IMG/VR virus record: IMGVR_UViG_3300027977_000027
Location: 9,021-73,020 of that record
Origin: a virus
DNA length: 64,000 bases
Direction: 5' to 3' (one strand)
In this document: piece after piece, positions 7,514 to 36,714 of the stretch
Position numbering within the stretch: the first letter of the stretch is position 1
Layout of the letters: every line of letters starts with the position of its first letter
Translations under genes and position numbers: made by a program
The notes under the pieces: generated by a model
Databases searched by the model: none
Told to the model about the DNA's origin: nothing
The model's input: only the letters and a program-made list of their open reading frames with translations

Positions 7514-7870
7514 GGGGATATAAAGGTATTGACTGAATATAGTCGTAATTGGTAAGCATGTAGTGCTAGATGGAAGCACTTTAATCTCGCTATTAACACT
7601 TTTAGATGGCAACGATTTTGTTGTATCCGAAAATTTCCTTACCGAAGCTGCTTGCAGTTTCGCTGGAGAGCTTGCTGTAGCCTAATATAGCTGATAGTGA
7701 TAATTCACTTCATCGTGGTATGTTCCACGGCATGATGGTAGACCATTAGGGTCTCTTGATTTCCTTCACAAATAATCAAGATATTTTGTTTCGTTAGAAA
7801 ATGAGACTAAACATGTAGAAAGTCTTTCAAGAGTATTCAACACATGGGTTCGATTCCCATTATCTCCACC
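7514..7870 (+). ncRNA. ssrA: tmRNA
   Basis: 5' GGGGATA...GGTATTGAC; 3' GGTTCGATTCCC-ATTATCTCCACC with G3:U70; tag frame 7608..7685 GNDFVVSENFLTEAACSFAGELAVA*. Confidence 0.9.
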
Positions 7871-12826: not shown

Positions 12827-13444
12827 ATGAAAAAAAGAGAAATTATAACTGAGACCAAAAGAAAATCTTTATTAGCAGATAGAGAAAAAGCCATCGTTGA
12901 GTCATTTGCAAAAACTTTTAACAAAATAAAAAGATTGGACGAAGCTTATGGAATGTCCTTTGAGGATGCCAAAGCCGAAGCAAAAAGAATTTCTGATGAA
13001 GAAGGTGGTGTAGCTCAACACGTAAATCAAGTTGGCGAAGATAAATTTATTGTTTCTGATTTTTTTGACGCTGACACAACAGTGGCTAGCTTTGGAATTG
13101 GAATTGATGAAGCCGAATATTATGACGGTGACGATTATGAACAAGCTTCTAGAAGCATTGAATATGGTATTGACCCATATGCTGAAAGACCATCATTGTT
13201 TGATGGTGTAGATAGAATATCGGTTGCTAGACCAGAATACAATGGCGCAGTAATGAATAGCATATACGGTATATATATCATTTACAAAGATGGTAAACAA
13301 GAAAAAATACATTCAGTAGAAGAGTTTAATGATAAATTTGGTACTGATATACCATTAACAAAAGACCCAAGAGAAGTTGTTTCTTACATTGAAACAAATT
13401 ACCCAGAAGTTACTGTTTATTTGGATGAATTTGATGTATCATAA
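12827..13444 (+). CDS. Hypothetical acidic protein, possibly virion-associated
   Basis: 205 aa ORF preceded by ATATTTATA. Confidence 0.65.
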   Translation: MKKREIITETKRKSLLADREKAIVESFAKTFNKIKRLDEAYGMSFEDAKAEAKRISDEEGGVAQHVNQVGEDKFIVSDFFDADTTVASFGIGIDEAEYYDGDDYEQASRSIEYGIDPYAERPSLFDGVDRISVARPEYNGAVMNSIYGIYIIYKDGKQEKIHSVEEFNDKFGTDIPLTKDPREVVSYIETNYPEVTVYLDEFDVS

Positions 13445-13458
13445 TTTTTTTCAAAAAG

Positions 13459-13553
13459 ACTTGCTTTTTTAAAAAAAGTTTAGTACCTTTGCATAACTTT
13501 TATAAACAAAGACATATTTAATAGAAACAGGGGGAACCCAAAAAAGAAAAACA
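13459..13553 (+). promoter_or_regulatory. Bacteroidota-type promoter and conserved 5' UTR of tRNA array 1
   Basis: acttgc...TACCTTTG; about 75 nt nearly identical to 33148..33224. Confidence 0.75.
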
Positions 13554-13655
13554 ATGAGAAACATTAACATACATATTAATTCGATTAGCATGTGGAGACG
13601 CAATAGTAATCCACTTGAATCGGCTATGTCTGTAAGTTTCTTTAGTGACTTTTAA
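13554..13655 (+). CDS. Putative attenuator leader peptide 1 (33 aa)
   Basis: MRNINIHINSISMWRRNSNPLESAMSVSFFSDF*; codons match the downstream anticodons. Confidence 0.75.
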   Translation: MRNINIHINSISMWRRNSNPLESAMSVSFFSDF

Positions 13656-13680
13656 AAATCACAAACAAACAATAAAGAAG

Positions 13681-13722
13681 AACCCGATTCAGAATAAAAT
13701 CTAAATCGGGTTTTTTGTTTTT
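13681..13722 (+). terminator. Attenuator terminator upstream of tRNA array 1
   Basis: aacccgatt...aatcgggtt with T run; 5' arm also complementary to tgaatcgg at 13616-13623. Confidence 0.8.
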
Positions 13723-13749
13723 TGGTTCATTGACATATTGGTTAAATAC

Positions 13750-13820
13750 ACAGGACACAGGCTTGGTGTCGGTGGGCTCCCCAAAAGCTTCACGAGTTGC
13801 TTCGATTGCAACGTCCTGTG
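13750..13820 (+). tRNA. tRNA-Trp(CCA), atypical
   Basis: Acceptor acaggac/gtcctgt, loop CCCCAAA (C33), weak D arm. Confidence 0.6.
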
Positions 13821-13825
13821 CACAT

Positions 13826-13908
13826 ACACTAGCTCATGGGCGTGACCAACAGACTCCAAATCTGTTCTTAGGATTAAATGGTTGTAGATTCGACTTCTAC
13901 CTAGTGTG
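13826..13908 (+). tRNA. tRNA-Trp(CCA) with long variable region
   Basis: Acceptor acactag/ctagtgt, acaga-CTCCAAA-tctgt, T arm gtaga-TTCGACT-tctac. Confidence 0.75.
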
Positions 13909-13913
13909 CATAT

Positions 13914-14000
13914 GGAAGGTGCCTCGCATGGAGCGAAACTAGTCTTGAAAACTAGGGTGGCGGTGATGAGCCGTCAGGGGGTCGGGTCCTCCACCTTCCT
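13914..14000 (+). tRNA. tRNA-Ser(TGA), divergent T loop
   Basis: ggaaggt/accttcc, ctagt-CTTGAAA-actag, long variable arm. Confidence 0.8.
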
Positions 14001-14007
14001 CTTACAT

Positions 14008-14080
14008 GGTGTTAGTAGCTCAGAGGCAGAGCGCTGGTTTGTGAAGCCAGAGGTCGGGATTTCGAAATTCCTCTAACACC
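14008..14080 (+). tRNA. tRNA-His(GTG)
   Basis: G-1, loop TTGTGAA, C73. Confidence 0.9.
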
Positions 14081-14205
14081 CTCTTAAAATTTAACCGTCA
14101 CCAAACAATGGTTTGGACTCCATGAGTGGGATGCCAGTGAATATGATAATAAACTGGGGCGGTTTAGGGATTGGGAAAATTAAAATAACATTGCGCCATA
14201 CCGAG

Positions 14206-14271
14206 CGAACCTGATAAATTCGATATTCGTAGCTGGTGTTGAAAACGTGAGTTCGAGTCTCACCGTGCCTA
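14206..14271 (+). pseudogene. tRNA-Ile(GAT)-like 3' two-thirds; no 5' acceptor strand found
   Basis: cgaac-CTGATAA-attcg, variable-arm hairpin, canonical T arm gtgag-TTCGAGT-ctcac. Confidence 0.55.
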
Positions 14272-14279
14272 CTAAACAT

Positions 14280-14361
14280 TCATAGGTAGCCTAGAGGCCA
14301 GGCAGCAGACTGTTAATCTGCGGAAGCAATTCCTACGTGGGTTCGATTCCCACCCTGTGAG
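14280..14361 (+). tRNA. tRNA-Asn(GTT) with long variable arm
   Basis: gcaga-CTGTTAA-tctgc, variable arm ggaa-gcaa-ttcc, G73. Confidence 0.85.
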
Positions 14362-14371
14362 CAAATAATAT

Positions 14372-14458
14372 GGTGTGGTGGCAGAGAGGTCGATTTCGAT
14401 AGACTCATATTCTCTTTCCTTACCAAAGGACACACAGATTCGAATCCTGTCCACGTTA
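14372..14458 (+). tRNA. tRNA with CAT anticodon (Met or Ile2), long variable arm, degenerate
   Basis: Loop CTCATAT, variable arm tcctt/aagga, several G:U pairs and mismatches. Confidence 0.6.
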
Positions 14459-14464
14459 TAACAT

Positions 14465-14537
14465 GGTTCCATAGTGTAACGGAAACACACTTCGCTACGA
14501 ACGAAGAGATTTGGGGGTTCGAATCCCTCTGGAACTA
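14465..14537 (+). tRNA. tRNA-Arg(ACG)
   Basis: cttcg-CTACGAA-cgaag cloverleaf. Confidence 0.92.
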
Positions 14538-14545
14538 CAAAATAT

Positions 14546-14617
14546 GGTCTCGGAGCATGATGGATATGCGACATCGTTCTAAGGTGTTCTATGTGGGTTC
14601 GACTCCCATCGAGACTA
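14546..14617 (+). tRNA. tRNA-Arg(TCT)
   Basis: acatc-GTTCTAA-ggtgt; acceptor ggtctcg/cgagact. Confidence 0.8.
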
Positions 14618-14621
14618 CAAT

Positions 14622-14710
14622 GGAGAATTAACTGGGCAGGGTCCCAGACTTATTTGCTAAATAATGTGTGCGTTTAAAAAACGCATGGTTTTCAATTAAC
14701 CAGTTCTCCG
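14622..14710 (+). tRNA. tRNA-Ser(GCT)
   Basis: Loop TTGCTAA, variable arm tgcgttt/aaacgca, G73. Confidence 0.8.
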
Positions 14711-14779
14711 CTTTAAATAACCAATATGTTTTAATTTTTTATAAACATCTTTATATTTATGTATAAAAAGATAAAAGAA

Positions 14780-17926: not shown

Positions 17927-18000
17927 GGTCCCGTAGCTTAGTTGGATAGAGCAACAGATTTCTAATCTGTGGGTCAGGGGCCCGAATCCCTTCAGGTTAC
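17927..18000 (+). pseudogene. tRNA-Arg(TCT) pseudogene
   Basis: Intact D and anticodon arms; T loop CCCGAAT and three acceptor-stem mismatches. Confidence 0.7.
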
Positions 18001-18068: not shown

Positions 18069-19193
18069 ATGTTAGCAATACAAAAATTTATTATTGAAAA
18101 TGGTTTAGCAAAAGCCATAACTGAGTTCAACCTTAAATCTAGGGTTTATGAACATAAGATTCTTTTAAAATACGACCAATTATCAGCGCCATCATTGATG
18201 GCATTACCAGAGGTTCAAGAATGTCGTGGTCTTATCTTAGAAAGAAACTCTTGGAAAGTTATGTCGTTAGCATTTACCAAGTTCTTCAATTCCGAAGAAG
18301 GCAACGCACATAAAGTTGATTGGAACACTGCACATGTCTTAGAAAAACTTGATGGTACATGTATTCAAGTCTATTATGACTGGAACAACATGACTTGGTA
18401 TGCTGGAACAACAGGAACTGCCGATGGTGAAGGTGAGGTTAACAATAAAACTGGCACAACGTTTAACCAATTATTTTGGAAAACTATTAAAGAAAAATAT
18501 AATTTAGAAGCGTCAAAATTTAACGCTGGTTACACTTATGTATTTGAATTAACAACACCTTATAATATCGTGGTTAAACCTCATGGTGAATCATCAGCCA
18601 CATTATTGACTGTTAGGAATCTAGAAACTTTGGAAGAAGTTTCATTTGAAGAACTAACAACAATAGCTGAAGAATTGGGAGTACCACGTGTTAAATCTTA
18701 CGATTTAAACGCTAAGAATGTTGGTGCTTTGATAAAAACGTTCGTTGGTATGGTATGGCATGACGAAGGTTATGTTGTGGTTGATGCTAACCATAACCGA
18801 GTAAAGATAAAGAACCCAGCTTATGTACATGCACATCACCTTAAAGGTAAGATGGGTAACCATCATATAATGGGGATAATCAAGACCAACGAAATTGAAG
18901 AATTTGCTTCTACATTCCCAGAAAGAAAGAATGAATTGTATAAGTTAAAAACAAACTATGATGCGTTAATCACAAAGCTAAACTTTGTTTGGGATGAACT
19001 TAAAACTTTGCGCCCAAAGAATATAACACCAGAAGAAAAGAAAAAATATGCGCAAGCAGTATTTGAAGTTTGTGATAAAAGAGAAGTTAAAAACTTCACT
19101 GGTTTGTTTTTTGGGTTAAACGATGGAAAAGTATCTTCTGTTGAAGACTTCATGTTAAAATATGATGATAAAGCCTTGTACAAAATCCTCTAA
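18069..19193 (+). CDS. RNA ligase, T4 Rnl1 family
   Basis: ECRGLIL, AFTKFFN, EKLDGT, FEL, EGYVV, RVKIK. Confidence 0.88.
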   Translation: MLAIQKFIIENGLAKAITEFNLKSRVYEHKILLKYDQLSAPSLMALPEVQECRGLILERNSWKVMSLAFTKFFNSEEGNAHKVDWNTAHVLEKLDGTCIQVYYDWNNMTWYAGTTGTADGEGEVNNKTGTTFNQLFWKTIKEKYNLEASKFNAGYTYVFELTTPYNIVVKPHGESSATLLTVRNLETLEEVSFEELTTIAEELGVPRVKSYDLNAKNVGALIKTFVGMVWHDEGYVVVDANHNRVKIKNPAYVHAHHLKGKMGNHHIMGIIKTNEIEEFASTFPERKNELYKLKTNYDALITKLNFVWDELKTLRPKNITPEEKKKYAQAVFEVCDKREVKNFTGLFFGLNDGKVSSVEDFMLKYDDKALYKIL

Positions 19194-20009: not shown

Positions 20010-21419
20010 ATGACAATTAAAGAAATCTTCGATGAAATTGCTGCTGAATCAAGCACCAACCAAAAAATGGAAATCCTTAAAAAATATAAGGATAATGAAT
20101 TGCTTAAACGTGTGCTTTATTTGGCCAATTCAAAGCGAGTTAAATTCTTCATCAAACAAATCCCAGCGTACACTCACAATACAATTGGTTGGACTCTAGA
20201 AGAAGCGTTGAATATGCTTATGACTATAGCTAATCGTGAGTTTACAGGTCAAAATGCTATAGATAAATTAACTATTTGGTTAGAGAATGTATCAACTGAT
20301 GATGCATATATCATTGAGCGTATCATTGAAAAAGATTGCAAAATTGGTATGGGAACAACCTTCATGAACAAGGTATTCAAAGACCTTATCGAAGACACAC
20401 CATACATGGGTGCAATATCGTTTGATGAGAAAAAAGCTCGTTCTATCTTTGATAATGGTGGTCGTGGTATATCTCAAATAAAAATGGATGGTCGTTATTG
20501 TAACGCTATCATTCGTTCTGGTGAAGTTGAATTGGAGAGTCGTAGTGGTGAAGCGACAATAGTAACTGGTGCCAAATTCTTGAGTGAATTAGCATCATTT
20601 CAAGATTGTGTGTTGAATGGAGAATTGACAATGGATGGCGTACCACGTTACGAATCTAATGGTATTATTGCTTCAGTTATTGACATACAAAGCAAACGTG
20701 GTGAACGCACAGAAAAAGAAACAGCTAAGAAGCTTGAAGCTTTTGAAAAGAAACATGGTAGCTTTGAAAAAGCTTTGAACTCTATTCGTTATACTGTATG
20801 GGATGTTATTAGTATTGATGAATATTTTAACAAACTTTCAAAAATACCTTATTTGGTACGTTTGGCTAAAGTTGAGCGTTTGATTTCCGAGTCTAACACC
20901 ACTATGGTTAAGATGATTGAAAGTCGTATTGTACATTCATACAAAGAAGCTATGGACCACTTTCAAGAAGTCCTTGCAACTGAAGTTGATGGTGTCCCAC
21001 AAGAAGGGACGATTCTTAAATCTGATGCTGGGACTTGGAAAGATGGCAAACCAAACTGGCAAATCAAACTAAAAATCGAGATGAATGTTGATTTAAAGAT
21101 AGTTGGGTTTAATTATGGAACCAAAGGTACTAAAAATGAAAATGTTATTTCGTCTTTAGTATGTGAATCCTCTGACGGAAAATTGGTTACTCAACCACAA
21201 GGTTTGAAAGAATCTTATATGAAACACATAACTGAAAATCAAGATAAACTTTTAGGGTCTATAATTGAAGTTAAGTGTTCTGGTCTTTCTAATGACGTAA
21301 CAGGTGCATATTCACTTATGTACCCAGCATTTAAAAGTTTTAGAGACGATAAAAATGTTGCCGATTCATTAGATGATATTATTGCTAATGAGAAAATGAT
21401 AAAGGGTGTTACTGTTTAA
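20010..21419 (+). CDS. ATP-dependent DNA ligase
   Basis: KMDGRY, LNGEL, VWD, EGTILK, IKLK, OB fold. Confidence 0.92.
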   Translation: MTIKEIFDEIAAESSTNQKMEILKKYKDNELLKRVLYLANSKRVKFFIKQIPAYTHNTIGWTLEEALNMLMTIANREFTGQNAIDKLTIWLENVSTDDAYIIERIIEKDCKIGMGTTFMNKVFKDLIEDTPYMGAISFDEKKARSIFDNGGRGISQIKMDGRYCNAIIRSGEVELESRSGEATIVTGAKFLSELASFQDCVLNGELTMDGVPRYESNGIIASVIDIQSKRGERTEKETAKKLEAFEKKHGSFEKALNSIRYTVWDVISIDEYFNKLSKIPYLVRLAKVERLISESNTTMVKMIESRIVHSYKEAMDHFQEVLATEVDGVPQEGTILKSDAGTWKDGKPNWQIKLKIEMNVDLKIVGFNYGTKGTKNENVISSLVCESSDGKLVTQPQGLKESYMKHITENQDKLLGSIIEVKCSGLSNDVTGAYSLMYPAFKSFRDDKNVADSLDDIIANEKMIKGVTV

Positions 21420-32507: not shown

Positions 32508-32812
32508 TGGTTAACTTAAACAAAGAACCTTATGATGTTTACATAGGTAGAGGTTCAAAATGGGGAAACCCATATACAACCATAAAAGATAAAGAAACTT
32601 TAGCTTGTGAAATAGTCGATTCTTCTGAAGAAGCTATTTCAAAATATAAAGAACACATCCTATCAACACCAGAACTATATGATTCACTTCATGAATTGGA
32701 AGGGAAAACACTTGGGTGTTTTTGCAAACCAAAACCATGTCATGGGGATGTGTTATTGGAATTAATCAGTCAAAAAAACTTAAAAAATTTTTTTGTTAAA
32801 AACGTTAAATAA
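32477..32812 (+). CDS. DUF4326 family protein
   Basis: YDVYIGRGSKWGNP...LGCFCKPKPCHGDVL. Confidence 0.85.
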   Translation: MENKKQTPTIVVNLNKEPYDVYIGRGSKWGNPYTTIKDKETLACEIVDSSEEAISKYKEHILSTPELYDSLHELEGKTLGCFCKPKPCHGDVLLELISQKNLKNFFVKNVK

Positions 32813-32876
32813 CTTGCAACTATAATATCTTTTATGTACATTTGCATTATTAATAACAATTCATAAAAAAAAAATT

Positions 32877-33101
32877 ATGAGTAATACTAGAACAGAACAA
32901 AGCGTTAAAAATGGTATCAAAATTTTGAAAATCGCTATCAGACGCAACATTTCACTTTCAGAAGCATCACGCCAAGCCAATTATGGCCGTAACTATGTTT
33001 CTGATATCAAACTTCGTTTGAGAGAAAATTATCGCAGCAAAAACGTAACGAAAGAGACTTATGCTCAGTTCAATGCGTTGATGAAAGAATACGCTGGGTA
33101 A
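32877..33101 (+). CDS. Small basic HTH-like protein
   Basis: ISLSEASRQANYGRNYVSDIK. Confidence 0.55.
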   Translation: MSNTRTEQSVKNGIKILKIAIRRNISLSEASRQANYGRNYVSDIKLRLRENYRSKNVTKETYAQFNALMKEYAG

Positions 33102-33123
33102 TTAAAAAAAAAGTTTGAAAAAA

Positions 33124-33218
33124 ACTTGACAATATCAAAAAAAGTTTGTACCTTTGCATAACTTTTAAAAACAAAGACATATTTAATTAAAACGGGGAAA
33201 CCCAAAAACAAAAAAAAA
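33124..33218 (+). promoter_or_regulatory. Promoter and conserved 5' UTR of tRNA array 2
   Basis: TACCTTTGCATAACTTTT...ACAAAGACATATTTAAT...GGGGAAACCC; homologous to 13484..13560. Confidence 0.75.
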
Positions 33219-33311
33219 ATGAGAACTTTTGCTAACATATTCGATTTTGCGTTTGAATTCGCAGCCGAGGCCGATAAAAGCCTAGGGGTCAAGTATATTG
33301 TCAAAAGTTAA
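33219..33311 (+). CDS. Putative attenuator leader peptide 2 (30 aa)
   Basis: MRTFANIFDFAFEFAAEADKSLGVKYIVKS*. Confidence 0.75.
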   Translation: MRTFANIFDFAFEFAAEADKSLGVKYIVKS

Positions 33312-33335
33312 CATAAAAGTTAAGTGTGTGATAAG

Positions 33336-33370
33336 AAGCCTGACCATAAAAAGTCAGGCTTTTTTGTTTT
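33336..33370 (+). terminator. Attenuator terminator upstream of tRNA array 2
   Basis: aagcctgac-cataaaaa-gtcaggctt with T run. Confidence 0.8.
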
Positions 33371-33379
33371 AAAACATAT

Positions 33380-33452
33380 GGGACGGTAGCTCAGTTGGTA
33401 GAGCAGTGGCCTGAAGAGCCACGTGTCGCTGGTTCGATTCCAGCCCGTCCCA
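33380..33452 (+). tRNA. tRNA-Phe(GAA)
   Basis: gtggc-CTGAAGA-gccac cloverleaf. Confidence 0.95.
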
Positions 33453-33457
33453 CGCAT

Positions 33458-33529
33458 GGCACCATCGAATAGTGGTTAGTTCGTCTGGTTTTCAACCAGA
33501 AAACAGGGGTTCAATTCCCCTTGGTGCTA
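33458..33529 (+). tRNA. tRNA-Glu(TTC)
   Basis: tctgg-TTTTCAA-ccaga. Confidence 0.92.
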
Positions 33530-33577
33530 CAAAATGTTACGGTAGACTAGCCTCTAGTCAACGTTGGGTCCTTATAT

Positions 33578-33654
33578 GGAATATTAGTAGAGTTGGTTAC
33601 AATATCGCACTGTCACTGCGAAGGTCACGGGTTCGAATCCCGTATATTCCGCCA
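33578..33654 (+). tRNA. tRNA-Asp(GTC)
   Basis: tcgca-CTGTCAC-tgcga, G73, encoded CCA. Confidence 0.93.
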
Positions 33655-33746
33655 AAAATGGTAATCGTTATTTTTGTGGTGGCCACCACGAATAATGAAA
33701 ATCCATACTAAGTAACGAATGATGGCCATCAATAGTTATTTAGTTA

Positions 33747-33817
33747 GAGGATGTAGTTTAATTGGTAAAACTCTGGCGTGGAGCCAGAAGTTGTGGGTTC
33801 GAACCCCATCATCTTCC
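33747..33817 (+). tRNA. tRNA-like gene with shortened anticodon loop (His-like, or Pro TGG)
   Basis: gaggatg/catcttc, ctggc-GTGGA-gccag, C73. Confidence 0.6.
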
Positions 33818-33823
33818 AAATAT

Positions 33824-33896
33824 GGGGTGCCATGTACCAAGGCTGGCGAGAGACCTTTGCAAGGTTTCTGGTAGGATTCGATTTCCTAGCGCTCCA
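33824..33896 (+). tRNA. tRNA-Ala(TGC)
   Basis: agacc-TTTGCAA-ggttt, G3:U70, A73; atypical D arm. Confidence 0.8.
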
Positions 33897-33897
33897 C

Positions 33898-33921
33898 AAA
33901 GCTCCGAAAGGGGCTTTTTTT
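33898..33921 (+). terminator. Terminator of tRNA array 2
   Basis: aaagctcc-gaaa-ggggcttttttt. Confidence 0.8.
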
Positions 33922-33956
33922 ATTTGTTTGGATATTTATGAAAAAGCAACTTTAAG

Positions 33957-36260
33957 ATGAAAATTTCAAATATATTTAAAGAAATCATTAATGAAGATTT
34001 CAAGTCGCAGACAGCTAATTTTATTAAACAAGGTTTCGATGCTAATATTGTTAAAACATATATTGATAAGTTTAAGTATATTAGAGATAACAAGTTCAAA
34101 GAAATGTTTGATGATAAGTTAGACATTCCAGTGCCACCTCAAAAACGTAACGATATTGATGCTTATAAAGATTTCCATGATTTGGAAAGGTTGGTTGATT
34201 ATGTTGGTGGTAGAAGACAAGGTGTTTCAACACTAGGTAAGAAAGAAGATATAGAATTGGACGCAAAACCAGTATATGAAGATGACAATTTTATTGTTTA
34301 CTATGCCGATACTCCAAGAGCTTGTATAAAGTATAAGGGTAGTTTTCCTTATTCATGGTGTGTAGCTAGAAGTGATTCTTCTAATATGTTTTACACATAT
34401 CGTTTTAAACCTTATGAGCCAGCTTTTTATTTTGTTAAAAACAAAAAATTGACCGAAAAAGAATTTGGTGTTTGGAATATGACTAAGAATGTTTTTAAAG
34501 GACAGTTTAAATATCCATATCACTTTTTTGTTATTCAAGTACCAAAAAACATAGACATTGAAAGTGATGAAAATGAACAATATATTGTTACTTCAGCAAA
34601 TAATGATGGTGACAAACAGATGAGTTGGAAAGATATATTAAAACTAAGTCCGAATATTGCACAAATAAAAGAAGTACTTAAACCAAAACCTTTTACAGAT
34701 GAAGAAAGGGAAAAGAATAATAGATTTAAGAATGGTATAAATGACCAAGAATTTGCTAAACTAAGTTATGAAGATAAAAGAAGTTATTTGGACATTTATC
34801 CAACAATATCTAGACCAATTACAACAAAACAATTGATTGAACTTCCAGATGATTTATTAAACCTTTATGTTTCTTTTGGTATAGGTTTAAATGACGAACA
34901 ATTCGCACACATAAAACCAAAAAAAGATGTTTTAAAAAGATACACGCAAATAAGTAAAAGAAAGTTAGAAGAGTATTTAAAAAATTCTACATATGACCGT
35001 AGAAGATTAAGAATGGCATACACTGAACTTATTGTTTTGTCTGATGAAGAAATTAAGAGTTATTTAGAAACATTAGATAAAAAAGAGTTAAATAGATTTA
35101 TTAAAGACAATGGTGAAGATAAAATAGAAATGTTGGAGAAACATGTTTCAGATAAATTTACCAGTGAATTTAAAGATTTAAAAACTATTGTTTTAAAAGC
35201 TAAAGACGATGACGAGGAAGCCTTGAATAAATTATATTCAATGGTACCAGAAAATGTTGATATAACTTTTTCTAACTCTGGTAATTTTATAATCATAGAC
35301 ACCAGCAATTACGGAAGCATATTACAAAAAAGAATGAGTAGTAACGTTTATGAATTATTAGAAAGAGTTGAAGAAGATAGACAATGGGGTGGTAGTTATT
35401 ACGATGATTATTTTTATGATGACCCAGAAAGGTTGGATGAAGAATATAAACATTATCTTACAGAATTTATAAATAACAATAAAGATTTAAAACAAGAATT
35501 CGATTCATTTGGTTTAGAGTTTAATTTTGAAACTGTTGATGATTTATTAGAAACTTACAAAGAAAAAGATGGTATCAGAGAAACGATTAGTAGTGAATAT
35601 ACTTACGCTAAAGAAAAATCCGAACAAAAAGCTTGGGATAAAGTAAAAAATGAGATTAAATCTATTGTTTATTTGTATGATGATGCTTTATACATGAAAG
35701 TTGGTCCGTTCATAATGAATTTGCTTTCTTATAAATTATTTACAACAGATGCTGAACAGTTTATAGATAATTTAGGTGATTTTATTGATAATATGTTAAA
35801 TGATAATGATTTACCTGATAATATGGATACAGTTTGGGAGGAAGTTAATGAAGCTGGTTGGAATTTTATGGATGTTGATAATGATGAAATATATAGGACA
35901 ATAAAGAGTAATATTTCAGATGCTATAGATAAGTTTTCTAACGATGAAGGTGCTCAGGATGATACTGAAGAACAACCAAATACGGTAAAATTAAAATCAG
36001 AAATTATTACCCTTTTAAAGAATACTTTAAAAGGTTTGGGTCAAAGTCCAGATGCAAAGACGATAGAAAATGATATTGCAAGGATAGATATTGACCGCCA
36101 AAGATTTAAGTTAGATGGTAAGGTTTACATAAAAATATATGATAAACAGCAAAAAAAAGAACATGAAGGTTATGTGTTTATCAATGATTTACCATCATAT
36201 TTTAGAAACTACAAACTTTTTGAACAAGTTAGTAGAATTAAAAATTTAATGAGGTATTAA
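33957..36260 (+). CDS. Large acidic hypothetical protein, probably virion-associated
   Basis: 767 aa; WCVA...FYTYR motif; upstream ATATTTAT. Confidence 0.75.
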   Translation: MKISNIFKEIINEDFKSQTANFIKQGFDANIVKTYIDKFKYIRDNKFKEMFDDKLDIPVPPQKRNDIDAYKDFHDLERLVDYVGGRRQGVSTLGKKEDIELDAKPVYEDDNFIVYYADTPRACIKYKGSFPYSWCVARSDSSNMFYTYRFKPYEPAFYFVKNKKLTEKEFGVWNMTKNVFKGQFKYPYHFFVIQVPKNIDIESDENEQYIVTSANNDGDKQMSWKDILKLSPNIAQIKEVLKPKPFTDEEREKNNRFKNGINDQEFAKLSYEDKRSYLDIYPTISRPITTKQLIELPDDLLNLYVSFGIGLNDEQFAHIKPKKDVLKRYTQISKRKLEEYLKNSTYDRRRLRMAYTELIVLSDEEIKSYLETLDKKELNRFIKDNGEDKIEMLEKHVSDKFTSEFKDLKTIVLKAKDDDEEALNKLYSMVPENVDITFSNSGNFIIIDTSNYGSILQKRMSSNVYELLERVEEDRQWGGSYYDDYFYDDPERLDEEYKHYLTEFINNNKDLKQEFDSFGLEFNFETVDDLLETYKEKDGIRETISSEYTYAKEKSEQKAWDKVKNEIKSIVYLYDDALYMKVGPFIMNLLSYKLFTTDAEQFIDNLGDFIDNMLNDNDLPDNMDTVWEEVNEAGWNFMDVDNDEIYRTIKSNISDAIDKFSNDEGAQDDTEEQPNTVKLKSEIITLLKNTLKGLGQSPDAKTIENDIARIDIDRQRFKLDGKVYIKIYDKQQKKEHEGYVFINDLPSYFRNYKLFEQVSRIKNLMRY

Positions 36261-36590: not shown

Positions 36591-36714
36591 TGGGAGGTGG
36601 CCAAATTGGTAAAGGCAGCGGTAATGCAAAAAGTTTAATCTGTATAAGATTAAGTTCAGCAAAAAAAAAGCTAATGGAAACCGCCATTTGTAGGTTCGAG
36701 TCCTACTCTCCCAA
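36591..36714 (+). ncRNA. tRNA-like RNA with 57 nt in place of the anticodon loop
   Basis: Acceptor tgggagg/tctccca, D arm gcc/ggc, stem gcggt/accgc, T arm gtagg-TTCGAGT-cctac. Confidence 0.7.

What the first reader, a model, noticed from the sequence alone, without database searches (positions are those of the whole stretch)
33124..33921. Second attenuator with a different codon set matching tRNA array 2
Seen: about 75 nt of promoter and UTR are nearly identical to those of array 1 (GTACCTTTGCATAACTTTT..ACAAAGACATATTTAAT..GGGG(A)AACCC..ATGAGAA), but the peptide is entirely different: MRTFANIFDFAFEFAAEADKSLGVKYIVKS*. Codons 8-19 are twelve consecutive Phe/Asp/Ala/Glu codons, and the canonical tRNAs downstream are Phe(GAA), Glu(UUC), Asp(GUC) and Ala(UGC). 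A 9-bp terminator sits at 33336-33365. A possible antiterminator is GGTCA(33287)/TGACC(33341) plus TTGTCA/TGATAA and TTAAC/GTTAA across the stop codon. Inference: a conserved scaffold with a reprogrammed sensing tract is an internal replicate, which argues strongly against chance and suggests a modular tRNA sense-and-replenish system.
Basis: partly seen in the sequence, partly recalled or inferred. Interest (0 to 1): 0.93.

Follow-up and report, generated by a model that had tools for sequence, protein, structure and literature searches.

The report
Leader-peptide attenuator gating phage tRNA genes
A giant freshwater phage puts each block of its tRNA genes behind a tiny test gene written in the amino acids those tRNAs carry and joined to a switchable transcription stop, so it probably makes a block of tRNAs only when ribosomes read those codons slowly.

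Summary
At 33126-33917 a Bacteroidota-type promoter and a 5' UTR (71 of 80 positions identical to the copy at 13461-13560) precede a 30-codon ORF. Its codons 8-19 are all Phe/Asp/Ala/Glu. An intrinsic terminator follows, and 15 nt later come tRNAs Phe, Glu, Asp, a Pro-like tRNA and Ala. In relatives from virus and metagenome collections I found 28 distinct leaders of four types. Their codon tracts split the 20 amino acids into four sets: R,N,I,H,S,M,W; F,D,A,E; T,Y,G,K,Q,P; V,L,C. Each type sits in front of tRNAs for its own set. Two large phage fragments carry all four types. The 3' part of each ORF pairs with the 5' arm of its own terminator better than with foreign ones (0 of 20,000 permutations). 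It is conserved as RNA, not as peptide. Best reading is a trp-style ribosome-mediated attenuator that senses decoding of the codons its own tRNAs read. Weak points: no direct expression data, a weak core helix in this copy, two relatives without arrays, and no Pro codon. I found no published case for tRNA genes. This scan has noted the same kind on other phage DNA before.

The parts
33126..33156 (+). Promoter of tRNA operon 2: -33 element (33126-33128) and -7 box (33149-33156). Predicted start of transcription is near 33161.
   Evidence: It matches the Bacteroidota -33/-7 consensus quoted in PMC6847099 (passages read). The window holds 39 full matches on the + strand against 3 on the - strand. 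It is near-identical to the promoter at 13461-13491.
33161..33218 (+). 5' UTR shared with operon 1. It is A-rich before the start codon and has a small G/C mini-hairpin element at 33194-33203.
   Evidence: A stands at -3, -6, -12 and -13, the positive determinants of initiation in Flavobacterium (PMC6847099). The mini-hairpin is missing in some relatives, so it is dispensable.
33219..33311 (+). Leader ORF of 30 codons. The sensing tract is codons 8-19 (33240-33275), all Phe/Asp/Ala/Glu.
   Evidence: Homologous type B leaders in 5 other phage contigs keep the tract's amino-acid set with synonymous and within-set changes.
33287..33345 (+). Antiterminator. Helices: 33287-33291 with 33341-33345, 33293-33294 with 33338-33339, 33298-33303 with 33329-33334, and 33308-33312 with 33319-33323 (this last one holds the stop codon).
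   Evidence: It folds at -17.3 kcal/mol, z -4.65, 0 of 200 shuffles as good. It forms in the truncated transcript only when a ribosome is placed on codons 1-13. Family-level co-variation is shown.
33333..33365 (+). Intrinsic terminator (the attenuator): 12-pair stem, 8-nt loop, U run.
   Evidence: Energy -16.8 kcal/mol, z -6.0. A terminator stands 21-28 nt after the stop codon in 25 of 25 leaders measured.
33380..33897 (+). tRNA array 2: Phe(GAA) 33380-33453, Glu(UUC) 33458-33530, Asp(GUC) 33578-33654, Pro-like (UGG, G33) 33747-33817, Ala(UGC) 33824-33897.
   Evidence: ARAGORN. Rfam tRNA matches for the first four. The Ala gene is not matched by Rfam but has G3:U70.
33898..33917 (+). Terminator that closes operon 2.
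13461..14618 (+). Paralogous unit (operon 1): promoter 13461-13491, leader ORF 13554-13655, antiterminator 13615-13623 with 13684-13692, terminator 13677-13716, then the tRNA array (Trp-like, Ser, His, Asn, a CAU tRNA, two Arg).
   Evidence: Antiterminator -17.6 and terminator -18.1 kcal/mol.

Best explanation
This is a ribosome-mediated (leader-peptide) transcription attenuator that controls a phage tRNA operon.

Proposed steps:
1. Host RNA polymerase starts at the Bacteroidota-type promoter.
2. A ribosome loads on the A-rich UTR and translates the 30-codon leader while the polymerase moves on.
3. If Phe-, Asp-, Ala- and Glu-tRNAs are plentiful, the ribosome runs into the 3' third of the ORF. 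There it unwinds or covers the antiterminator strand (33287-33312). The terminator (33333-33364) forms and transcription stops 15 nt before tRNA-Phe.
4. If any of these aminoacyl-tRNAs is scarce, the ribosome stalls in the tract. The free 3' part of the ORF pairs with the terminator's 5' arm, and the polymerase reads through into the tRNA genes.

The operon would thus feed back on its own product. Four paralogous units in this phage clade do the same for four disjoint amino-acid sets that together make all 20.

Shown here: the architecture, the codon/tRNA match, the mutually exclusive folds and their co-variation. Inferred: translation of the ORF, the kinetic switch, and the signal (host tRNA depletion or cleavage during infection is my guess).
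For: 1. Codon/tRNA match, replicated. Three more type A leaders were seen.
- Type B: 6 of 6 are followed by Phe, Glu and Asp tRNAs, and 5 of 6 by a called Ala tRNA.
- Type D: 5 of 5 are followed by Cys, Val and Leu tRNAs.
- Type C: 3 of 5 are followed by Pro, Gln, Tyr, Thr, Gly and Lys tRNAs (one contig ends after the first tRNA, one has none).
- Type A: 7 of the 9 leaders are followed by tRNAs from the set Trp, Ser, His, Ile, Asn, Met, Arg; several of those loci end after only two or three of them.
The fraction of codons 3-18 readable by strict wobble by the type's own array is 0.88, 0.57, 0.95 and 0.71. For other types' arrays it is at most 0.24. Two phage fragments, G001 and G002, each carry all four units.

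2. On the whole 73-kb record, the generic finder gives only the two leaders as hits with a -7 box, and both head the two arrays.

3. Terminator. It is present 21-28 nt after the stop in 25 of 25 leaders. The first tRNA starts 6-20 nt after it in 11 of 11 type B and D units, which leaves no room for a promoter. No full promoter consensus lies inside either array of the window.

4. Antiterminator. Among 16 representatives with less than 70% identical terminator arms, the mean cognate duplex energy between the ORF 3' part and the terminator 5' arm is -13.0. Permuted partners give -9.78 (sd 0.63), and 0 of 20,000 permutations reach the observed value. The control with the codon tract in place of the 3' part gives p 0.94. 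In the close type A group the helix pairs in 63 of 63 cells, with one A-U to G-C compensatory pair (3 sequences, plus 1 G-U) at a column that also co-varies within the terminator.

5. For this copy, the antiterminator (-17.3 kcal/mol) and terminator (-16.8 kcal/mol) are mutually exclusive and balanced.

6. Ribosome-mask folding of the truncated transcript pairs the terminator arm only with a ribosome on codons 1-13, and not without a ribosome or with one further 3'. The same script gives the same pattern for E. coli thrL and hisL.

7. The 3' part of the type B ORF is conserved as nucleotides but is read in different frames in the window and in L066/L080. The constraint there is on RNA, not on peptide.

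8. One RNA-library contig (233 nt, 0 differences) spans 33226-33458, that is leader, terminator and tRNA-Phe. This is a weak hint only, because DNA can be present in such libraries.
Against: - No experiment or strand-resolved RNA data. The bridging contig may be DNA, and another RNA-library contig of a relative spans the promoter itself.
- For this very copy, the best simple duplex between ORF 3' part and terminator arm (-9.1) is no better than with foreign terminators: rank 13 of 24, z about 0. Its support comes from the multi-helix fold and from the family.
- At equilibrium the full-length leader keeps the terminator at nearly every ribosome position in most of the 19 leaders. The switch must therefore be kinetic, which I cannot test.
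- In the mask model, a ribosome on codons 14-19 no longer preserves the antiterminator. Only the first half of the 12-codon run would then act.
- Pairing of the tract with the ORF 3' part (the classical 1:2 helix) shows no cognate preference across the family, p 0.26. In 4 of the 5 type B leaders shown (of the 6 found), the untranslated truncated RNA already forms the antiterminator.
- Codons 3-7 include Thr, Asn and Ile, which the array does not serve, and the Pro-like tRNA has no codon in the leader.
- Strict wobble covers only 10 of 16 tract codons in this copy. Two Ala codons need expanded wobble by U34.
- Two relatives keep a leader without tRNAs behind it: L007/L053 has none in 8.4 kb, and L064 has none in about 2.5 kb.
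Confidence: 0.74

Rival explanations
1. The hairpin is a constitutive leaky terminator or processing signal, and read-through is set by a phage or host factor (an antitermination protein, or timing of infection). The short ORF would play no sensing role.
For: The terminator always wins at equilibrium. The simple cognate duplex of this copy is unremarkable. The 1:2 helix lacks co-variation. Some type A units also carry a 56-codon protein gene behind the terminator, so the unit is not only about tRNAs.
Against: It does not explain why four tract types match four arrays. It does not explain why the ORF's 3' part co-varies with its own terminator arm. It does not explain why the stop codon is held 21-28 nt from the stem in 25 of 25 leaders.
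Confidence: 0.1
2. The short ORFs encode functional micro-proteins (the Val/Leu/Cys-rich type would be a membrane peptide). They merely share a strong promoter and their own terminator, and the tRNAs are expressed by read-through.
For: In the type A group many differences between copies are synonymous. The type D peptides are hydrophobic.
Against: The conserved 3' nucleotides are read in different frames in close type B relatives. Within a type the tract keeps its amino-acid set but not its order. Four unrelated 'proteins' would have to match four tRNA sets by chance: binomial P 3.8e-8 for this tract alone.
Confidence: 0.04
3. The architecture and switch are the same, but the physiological signal is amino-acid starvation or general translation stress (charging level), not the size of the tRNA pool. 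The unit would then be a stress or timing switch rather than a replenishing loop.
For: A stalled ribosome cannot tell a missing tRNA from an uncharged one. That is how the classical amino-acid attenuators work (established knowledge). An inducible tRNA array that answers to translation stress is known in Anabaena (PMC8421152, passages read).
Against: Making more tRNA does not relieve amino-acid starvation. The one-to-one partition of tracts and arrays fits a supply loop better. The phage also carries tRNA/RNA repair genes: a tmRNA, an RNA ligase and a DNA ligase (PHROG matches).
Confidence: 0.1

Closest known systems
Multivalent leader-peptide attenuators of enterobacterial amino-acid operons (thr leader: Thr and Ile; ilvGMEDA leader: Ile, Leu, Val; also his, trp, phe, leu). 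The features are recalled from established knowledge; thrL and hisL were read here.
   Same: Promoter-proximal short ORF with a run of codons for several amino acids, an intrinsic terminator, and an antiterminator whose 5' strand lies in or near the end of the ORF. The same folding script gives the same ribosome-position pattern for thrL, hisL and the phage leaders.
   Different: The controlled genes are tRNA genes, not biosynthetic enzymes. The product sensed is the product made. Four paralogues share one promoter/UTR scaffold and divide all 20 amino acids. The host type is Bacteroidota, with no Shine-Dalgarno sequence. The 1:2 helix is not supported by co-variation.
pheST (pheM leader) attenuator of E. 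coli phenylalanyl-tRNA synthetase (recalled, not read here)
   Same: Leader-peptide attenuation applied to a gene of the translation apparatus, with Phe codons as the sensor.
   Different: It controls a synthetase, not tRNAs, and senses a single amino acid. E. coli's own tRNA-Phe gene pheV has no leader ORF or attenuator in its roughly 105-nt upstream region.
T-box riboswitches
   Same: Transcription attenuation that reads the state of a specific tRNA through codon-anticodon pairing.
   Different: T-boxes bind uncharged tRNA directly, without a ribosome, and have a conserved specifier loop and T-box sequence. No Rfam family other than tRNA reached its gathering score in the leader. The sub-threshold matches there were all far below their gathering scores.
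Inducible long tRNA array of Anabaena sp. PCC 7120 (PMC8421152)
   Same: A supernumerary tRNA operon that is silent until translation is impaired, with an RNA repair ligase co-regulated.
   Different: Regulation there is by direct repeats overlapping the promoter (a presumed repressor). The main text holds 0 occurrences of 'leader peptide', 'attenuat' or 'terminator'. Its supplements, including the promoter mapping, were not seen.
Phage tRNA gene clusters in general (T4-like and other large phages; recalled)
   Same: Clusters of tRNA genes thought to compensate for codon usage or for host tRNA loss.
   Different: My searches found no described translation-coupled control.

Membership tests
Ribosome-mediated (leader-peptide) transcription attenuators | Short ORF with a start codon and a usable initiation context directly behind a promoter | tested here: met
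   ORF 33219-33311 lies 58 nt behind the predicted start of transcription. A stands at -3, -6, -12 and -13, as favoured in Flavobacterium. The ORF is intact in all 28 leaders found.
Ribosome-mediated (leader-peptide) transcription attenuators | Run of codons for the amino acid(s) to which the operon relates | tested here: met
   12 of 12 codons are Phe/Asp/Ala/Glu. The leader-type by array-type matrix is diagonal.
Ribosome-mediated (leader-peptide) transcription attenuators | Intrinsic terminator between the leader ORF and the structural genes | tested here: met
   Present in 25 of 25 leaders, 21-28 nt after the stop.
Ribosome-mediated (leader-peptide) transcription attenuators | Mutually exclusive antiterminator that uses the terminator's 5' arm and a strand a terminating ribosome would cover | tested here: met
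   (-17.3 against -16.8 kcal/mol).. Cognate preference, 0 of 20,000 permutations. One compensatory pair. For this copy alone the core duplex is not exceptional.
Ribosome-mediated (leader-peptide) transcription attenuators | Anti-antiterminator (1:2) helix that includes the regulatory codons | tested here: inconclusive
   It is present in the window's two leaders: -24.7 kcal/mol, z -2.3, and -22.6 kcal/mol, z -2.1. There is no cognate preference across the family, p 0.26.
Ribosome-mediated (leader-peptide) transcription attenuators | Read-through rises when the cognate aminoacyl-tRNA is limiting and depends on leader translation | not testable with these tools
   Only contigs of RNA libraries were on hand.
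Ribosome-mediated (leader-peptide) transcription attenuators | Controlled genes are amino-acid biosynthesis or aminoacyl-tRNA synthetase genes (all described members, as far as I recall) | tested here: not met
   The controlled genes are tRNAs. I therefore file it as a new variant, not as a further member.
T-box riboswitch | Match to the T-box covariance model (specifier loop, T-box sequence) | tested here: not met
   No match at the gathering threshold, or at E up to 1, in 33100-33960 or 13440-14760.

The most novel reading that the evidence does not exclude
A clade of freshwater Bacteroidota jumbo phages runs a complete four-channel tRNA supply controller. Four paralogous attenuators on one promoter/UTR scaffold divide all 20 amino acids among them. 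Each measures, through a ribosome on its own test ORF, how fast its codons are decoded, and it switches on exactly the tRNA genes that read them. Together with the phage's tmRNA, RNA ligases and CCA enzyme, this would be a sensing arm of a counter-defence against host tRNA depletion or cleavage. It would also be the first autogenous, product-sensing control of tRNA genes.
Probability: 0.5. Interest if true: 0.92.

Novelty: new variant of a known kind. Interest (0 to 1): 0.86.

Why it matters
As far as I recall, tRNA genes of cells are controlled at their promoters (growth rate, stringent response). I found no published case of a tRNA operon that measures the decoding of its own codons. If this reading holds, three things follow.

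1. Phages do not merely carry spare tRNAs. They dose them on demand and per amino-acid group, which bears on why large phages carry near-complete tRNA sets and how they cope with host defences that attack tRNAs.

2. The scaffold is a natural, modular sensor. The promoter, UTR and terminator logic are kept while the codon tract and antiterminator strand are rewritten. That makes codon-specific translation-speed reporters directly testable.

3. It gives a clean system for studying transcription-translation coupling in Bacteroidota, which lack Shine-Dalgarno initiation.

Tried and rejected
- A search of the phage GenBank collection with 33000-34000 gave only tRNA-level matches of 14% cover or less, so no annotated relative was found.
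- The search for related loci with the 767-residue protein downstream found no relative. Pfam and PHROGs gave nothing for it.
- Rfam found no cis-regulatory family in either leader.
- Pattern scans returned chance hits, which I dropped after reading them: L001, L002, L004, L008; L048, L049; L050, L052; L057, L063; and 12 of 13 genome-contig hits. The 40 loci were not read, apart from L003 and L031, which other scans also returned.
- Full-length equilibrium folding with a ribosome mask kept the terminator in almost every case and is uninformative for a kinetic switch.
- The generic finder gave one false hit, on the opposite strand of L081. I removed it before the counts. It also missed L059, L076 and L097, which were found by other calls.
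- My recollection that E. coli tRNA-Phe genes have an attenuator-like leader was not borne out for pheV. pheU was not checked.
- Literature searches found no leader-peptide attenuator of tRNA genes. For those I saw listings and abstracts only. I read passages of PMC3082878, PMC8421152 and PMC6847099. No supplements were seen.
- RNA-library runs: the parts of 32800-34300 without cover say nothing. Most laid contigs are other organisms' tRNAs.
- Habitat: 12 further DNA runs in 11 studies, labelled lake water or freshwater (one labelled soil), hold 0.37-0.86 of the sampled words.
- No protein fold, complex or homology search was needed.
Full report
WHAT IS THERE. The window is 64,000 of the 73,020 bases of a virus record with 31% G+C. 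Its genes are phage-like: DNA ligase, RNA ligase, nuclease and polymerase-like PHROG matches. It has a tmRNA and 11 ARAGORN tRNAs in two arrays plus a lone tRNA-Met.

The full Bacteroidota promoter consensus, the -33/-7 elements quoted in PMC6847099 (passages read), occurs 39 times on the + strand and 3 times on the - strand. The host is therefore most likely a member of the Bacteroidota. Related contigs are fragments of jumbo phages. Records of 232,931, 136,575 and 108,004 bases are rated 64%, 39% and 30% complete, so the 73-kb record is probably about a fifth of a genome.

THE OBSERVATION. Each element is at the coordinates given.
- The promoter and UTR of operon 2 (33126-33225) and operon 1 (13460-13560) agree in 89 of 103 aligned columns, and in 71 of 80 from the -7 box to the seventh base of the ORF. 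The remainder of the two ORFs agrees in 52 of 96. The scaffold occurs exactly twice in the record.
- Codons 8-19 of the 30-codon ORF are all Phe, Asp, Ala or Glu. These four make up 24.1% of residues in the record's long ORFs, which gives P 3.8e-8 for one window. No other run of 8 or more exists in any frame of the record.
- The terminator is a 12-pair stem at 33333-33364 with a U run.
- tRNA-Phe starts 15 nt behind the U run. Glu, Asp, a Pro-like tRNA with G at position 33, and Ala (with G3:U70) follow. A second terminator closes the unit at 33898-33917.

Scans of the virus, metagenome and genome collections with parts of the scaffold found true relatives among chance hits (read). Whole-record searches of three large fragments followed.

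Three more type A leaders were seen.

The leaders fall into four types by the amino acids of codons 3-18:
- Type A: R, N, I, H, S, M, W.
- Type B: F, D, A, E.
- Type C: T, Y, G, K, Q, P.
- Type D: V, L, C.
The four sets are disjoint and add up to all 20 amino acids.

The tRNAs behind each leader belong to its own set.
- Type B: 6 of 6 have Phe, Glu and Asp, and 5 of 6 a called Ala.
- Type D: 5 of 5 have Cys, Val and Leu.
- Type C: 3 of 5 have Pro, Gln, Tyr, Thr, Gly and Lys. One contig ends after the first tRNA (Pro). One has none.
- Type A: 7 of the 9 leaders have tRNAs from the set Trp, Ser, His, Ile, Asn, Met, Arg, though several loci end after two or three of them. One contig ends after 178 nt, and one has no tRNA in about 2.5 kb.

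By strict wobble, the fraction of tract codons readable by the own-type array is 0.88, 0.57, 0.95 and 0.71. For the other types it is at most 0.24. The type B figure is low because GCU and GCC need expanded wobble by the UGC anticodon.

G001 and G002 each carry all four units. On the window's own record, the finder returns only the two leaders as hits with a -7 box. The match is therefore real, replicated and specific.

THE SWITCH. For operon 2 the segment 33283-33347 folds into a four-helix structure of -17.3 kcal/mol (z -4.65). It uses 33338-33345 and 33333-33334 of the terminator's 5' arm. The terminator itself is -16.8 kcal/mol (z -6.0). The ORF alone folds on itself at -24.7 kcal/mol (z -2.3). 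Operon 1 gives -17.6, -18.1 and -22.6 kcal/mol.

I folded the transcript cut just before the terminator's 3' arm, with a 28-nt ribosome mask. The terminator arm is about half paired when the ribosome sits on codons 1-13. It is unpaired with the ribosome further 3', and unpaired with no ribosome. The same script applied to E. coli thrL and hisL gives the same pattern.

Across the family, the 3' part of each ORF pairs better with its own terminator arm than with those of others. For 16 representatives the mean is -13.0 against -9.78 (sd 0.63). None of 20,000 permutations reaches it. The control with the codon tract shows nothing, p 0.94.

In seven close type A leaders the 9-pair helix is paired in 63 of 63 cells. 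One position changes A-U to G-C in three sequences (G-U in one). The same terminator column also co-varies with the 3' arm. On its own this is weak: 57 of 500 shuffles reach it.

In type B, the conserved nucleotides of the ORF's 3' third are read in different frames in the window and in L066/L080. The constraint there is on RNA. In the tract it is on the amino-acid set, which persists through synonymous and within-set changes.

The stop codon lies 21-28 nt before the stem in 25 of 25 leaders. In 11 of 11 type B and D units the first tRNA begins 6-20 nt behind the terminator. No full promoter consensus lies between leader and array end in the window.

WHAT SPEAKS AGAINST.
- Nothing here shows translation or regulated termination.
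- The one RNA-library contig that runs without a mismatch from the leader through the terminator to the end of tRNA-Phe (33226-33458) may be DNA carry-over. A contig of a relative also crosses the promoter.
- For this copy, the best single duplex with the terminator arm is no better than with foreign terminators (rank 13 of 24).
- At equilibrium the terminator persists in the large majority of cases.
- The classical 1:2 helix has no family-level support, p 0.26. In 4 of the 5 type B leaders shown (of the 6 found), the untranslated truncated RNA already shows the antiterminator. Occlusion by the terminating ribosome, rather than a four-segment relay, may be what decides.
- Codons 3-7 include Thr, Asn and Ile.
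- The Pro-like tRNA is unmatched by any leader codon.
- L007/L053 and L064 keep leaders without arrays.
- Many type A units carry a 56-codon ORF of unknown function between terminator and tRNAs.

COMPARISON WITH WHAT IS KNOWN. The unit works like the multivalent leader-peptide attenuators of amino-acid operons. It meets their structural features except the 1:2 helix, which is inconclusive. It differs in what it controls. It is not a T-box.

The nearest published case of an inducible tRNA array, in Anabaena, is regulated by promoter repeats. Its main text does not mention attenuation (PMC8421152; supplements not seen). E. coli pheV has no such leader. Seven full-text searches found no description of leader-peptide control of tRNA genes. 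This shows only that none is in the held library.

Earlier agents of this scan reported the same kind of unit on other giant phages, and another reader noted operon 1 of this record. Those are unchecked notes, not independent evidence.

VERDICT. I file it as a new variant of a known kind. Confidence in the attenuator mechanism is 0.74. What this window adds is the demonstration, through relatives, that one scaffold has been rewritten four times to cover all 20 amino acids.

Noticed in passing
window 33747-33817: A tRNA with a Pro anticodon (UGG) but G instead of the universal U at position 33. It sits inside a Phe/Glu/Asp/Ala array whose leader has no Pro codon. ARAGORN calls no Pro tRNA in the type B arrays of the relatives.
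   Followed up: partly
window 33676-33689 and 33720-33731: Two short perfect palindromes lie in the 92-nt spacer between the Asp and Pro-like tRNAs. Similar palindromes stand in spacers of relatives' type A and C units. They may be processing or binding sites.
   Followed up: no
window 13730-13741; L055, L051, L031, L058 spacers: A conserved element of about 12 nt lies between the attenuator terminator and the first tRNA in type A and C units. It does not fit the promoter consensus.
   Followed up: partly
L054 5879-6049 (-), and the same position in L005, L064, L056, L059, L068, L076: A conserved ORF of about 56 codons sits between the type A attenuator and its tRNAs. It has no convincing Pfam or PHROG match. 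It is absent from the window's operon 1.
   Followed up: partly
window 33194-33203 and 13531-13540: A small G/C mini-hairpin element in the shared 5' UTR is conserved in most relatives but missing in several leaders of G001 and G002. Its role is unknown.
   Followed up: no
L007 5339-5500 (same contig as L053): A type C leader, terminator and spacer are intact, but protein genes follow and no tRNA is found within 8.4 kb. The array has been lost or moved.
   Followed up: partly
window 7514-7870, 18069-19193, 20010-21419: A phage tmRNA, an RNA-ligase-like gene and an ATP-dependent DNA ligase lie in the same record. This fits a phage invested in RNA repair and translation rescue. Other readers also note a CCA enzyme and a Ro60-like gene (not checked).
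   Followed up: partly
window 36591-36714 and 17930-17996: Two further Rfam tRNA matches lie outside the arrays. One is 124 nt long and so carries a large insertion.
   Followed up: no
window 13750-14008 and 14082-14279: Array 1 holds tRNA-like genes that ARAGORN misses at default settings. These are a Trp-like and a Ser(UGA) gene with long variable arms, matched only by the tRNA-Sec model below threshold, and about 200 nt that may hold a disrupted Ile gene.
   Followed up: partly
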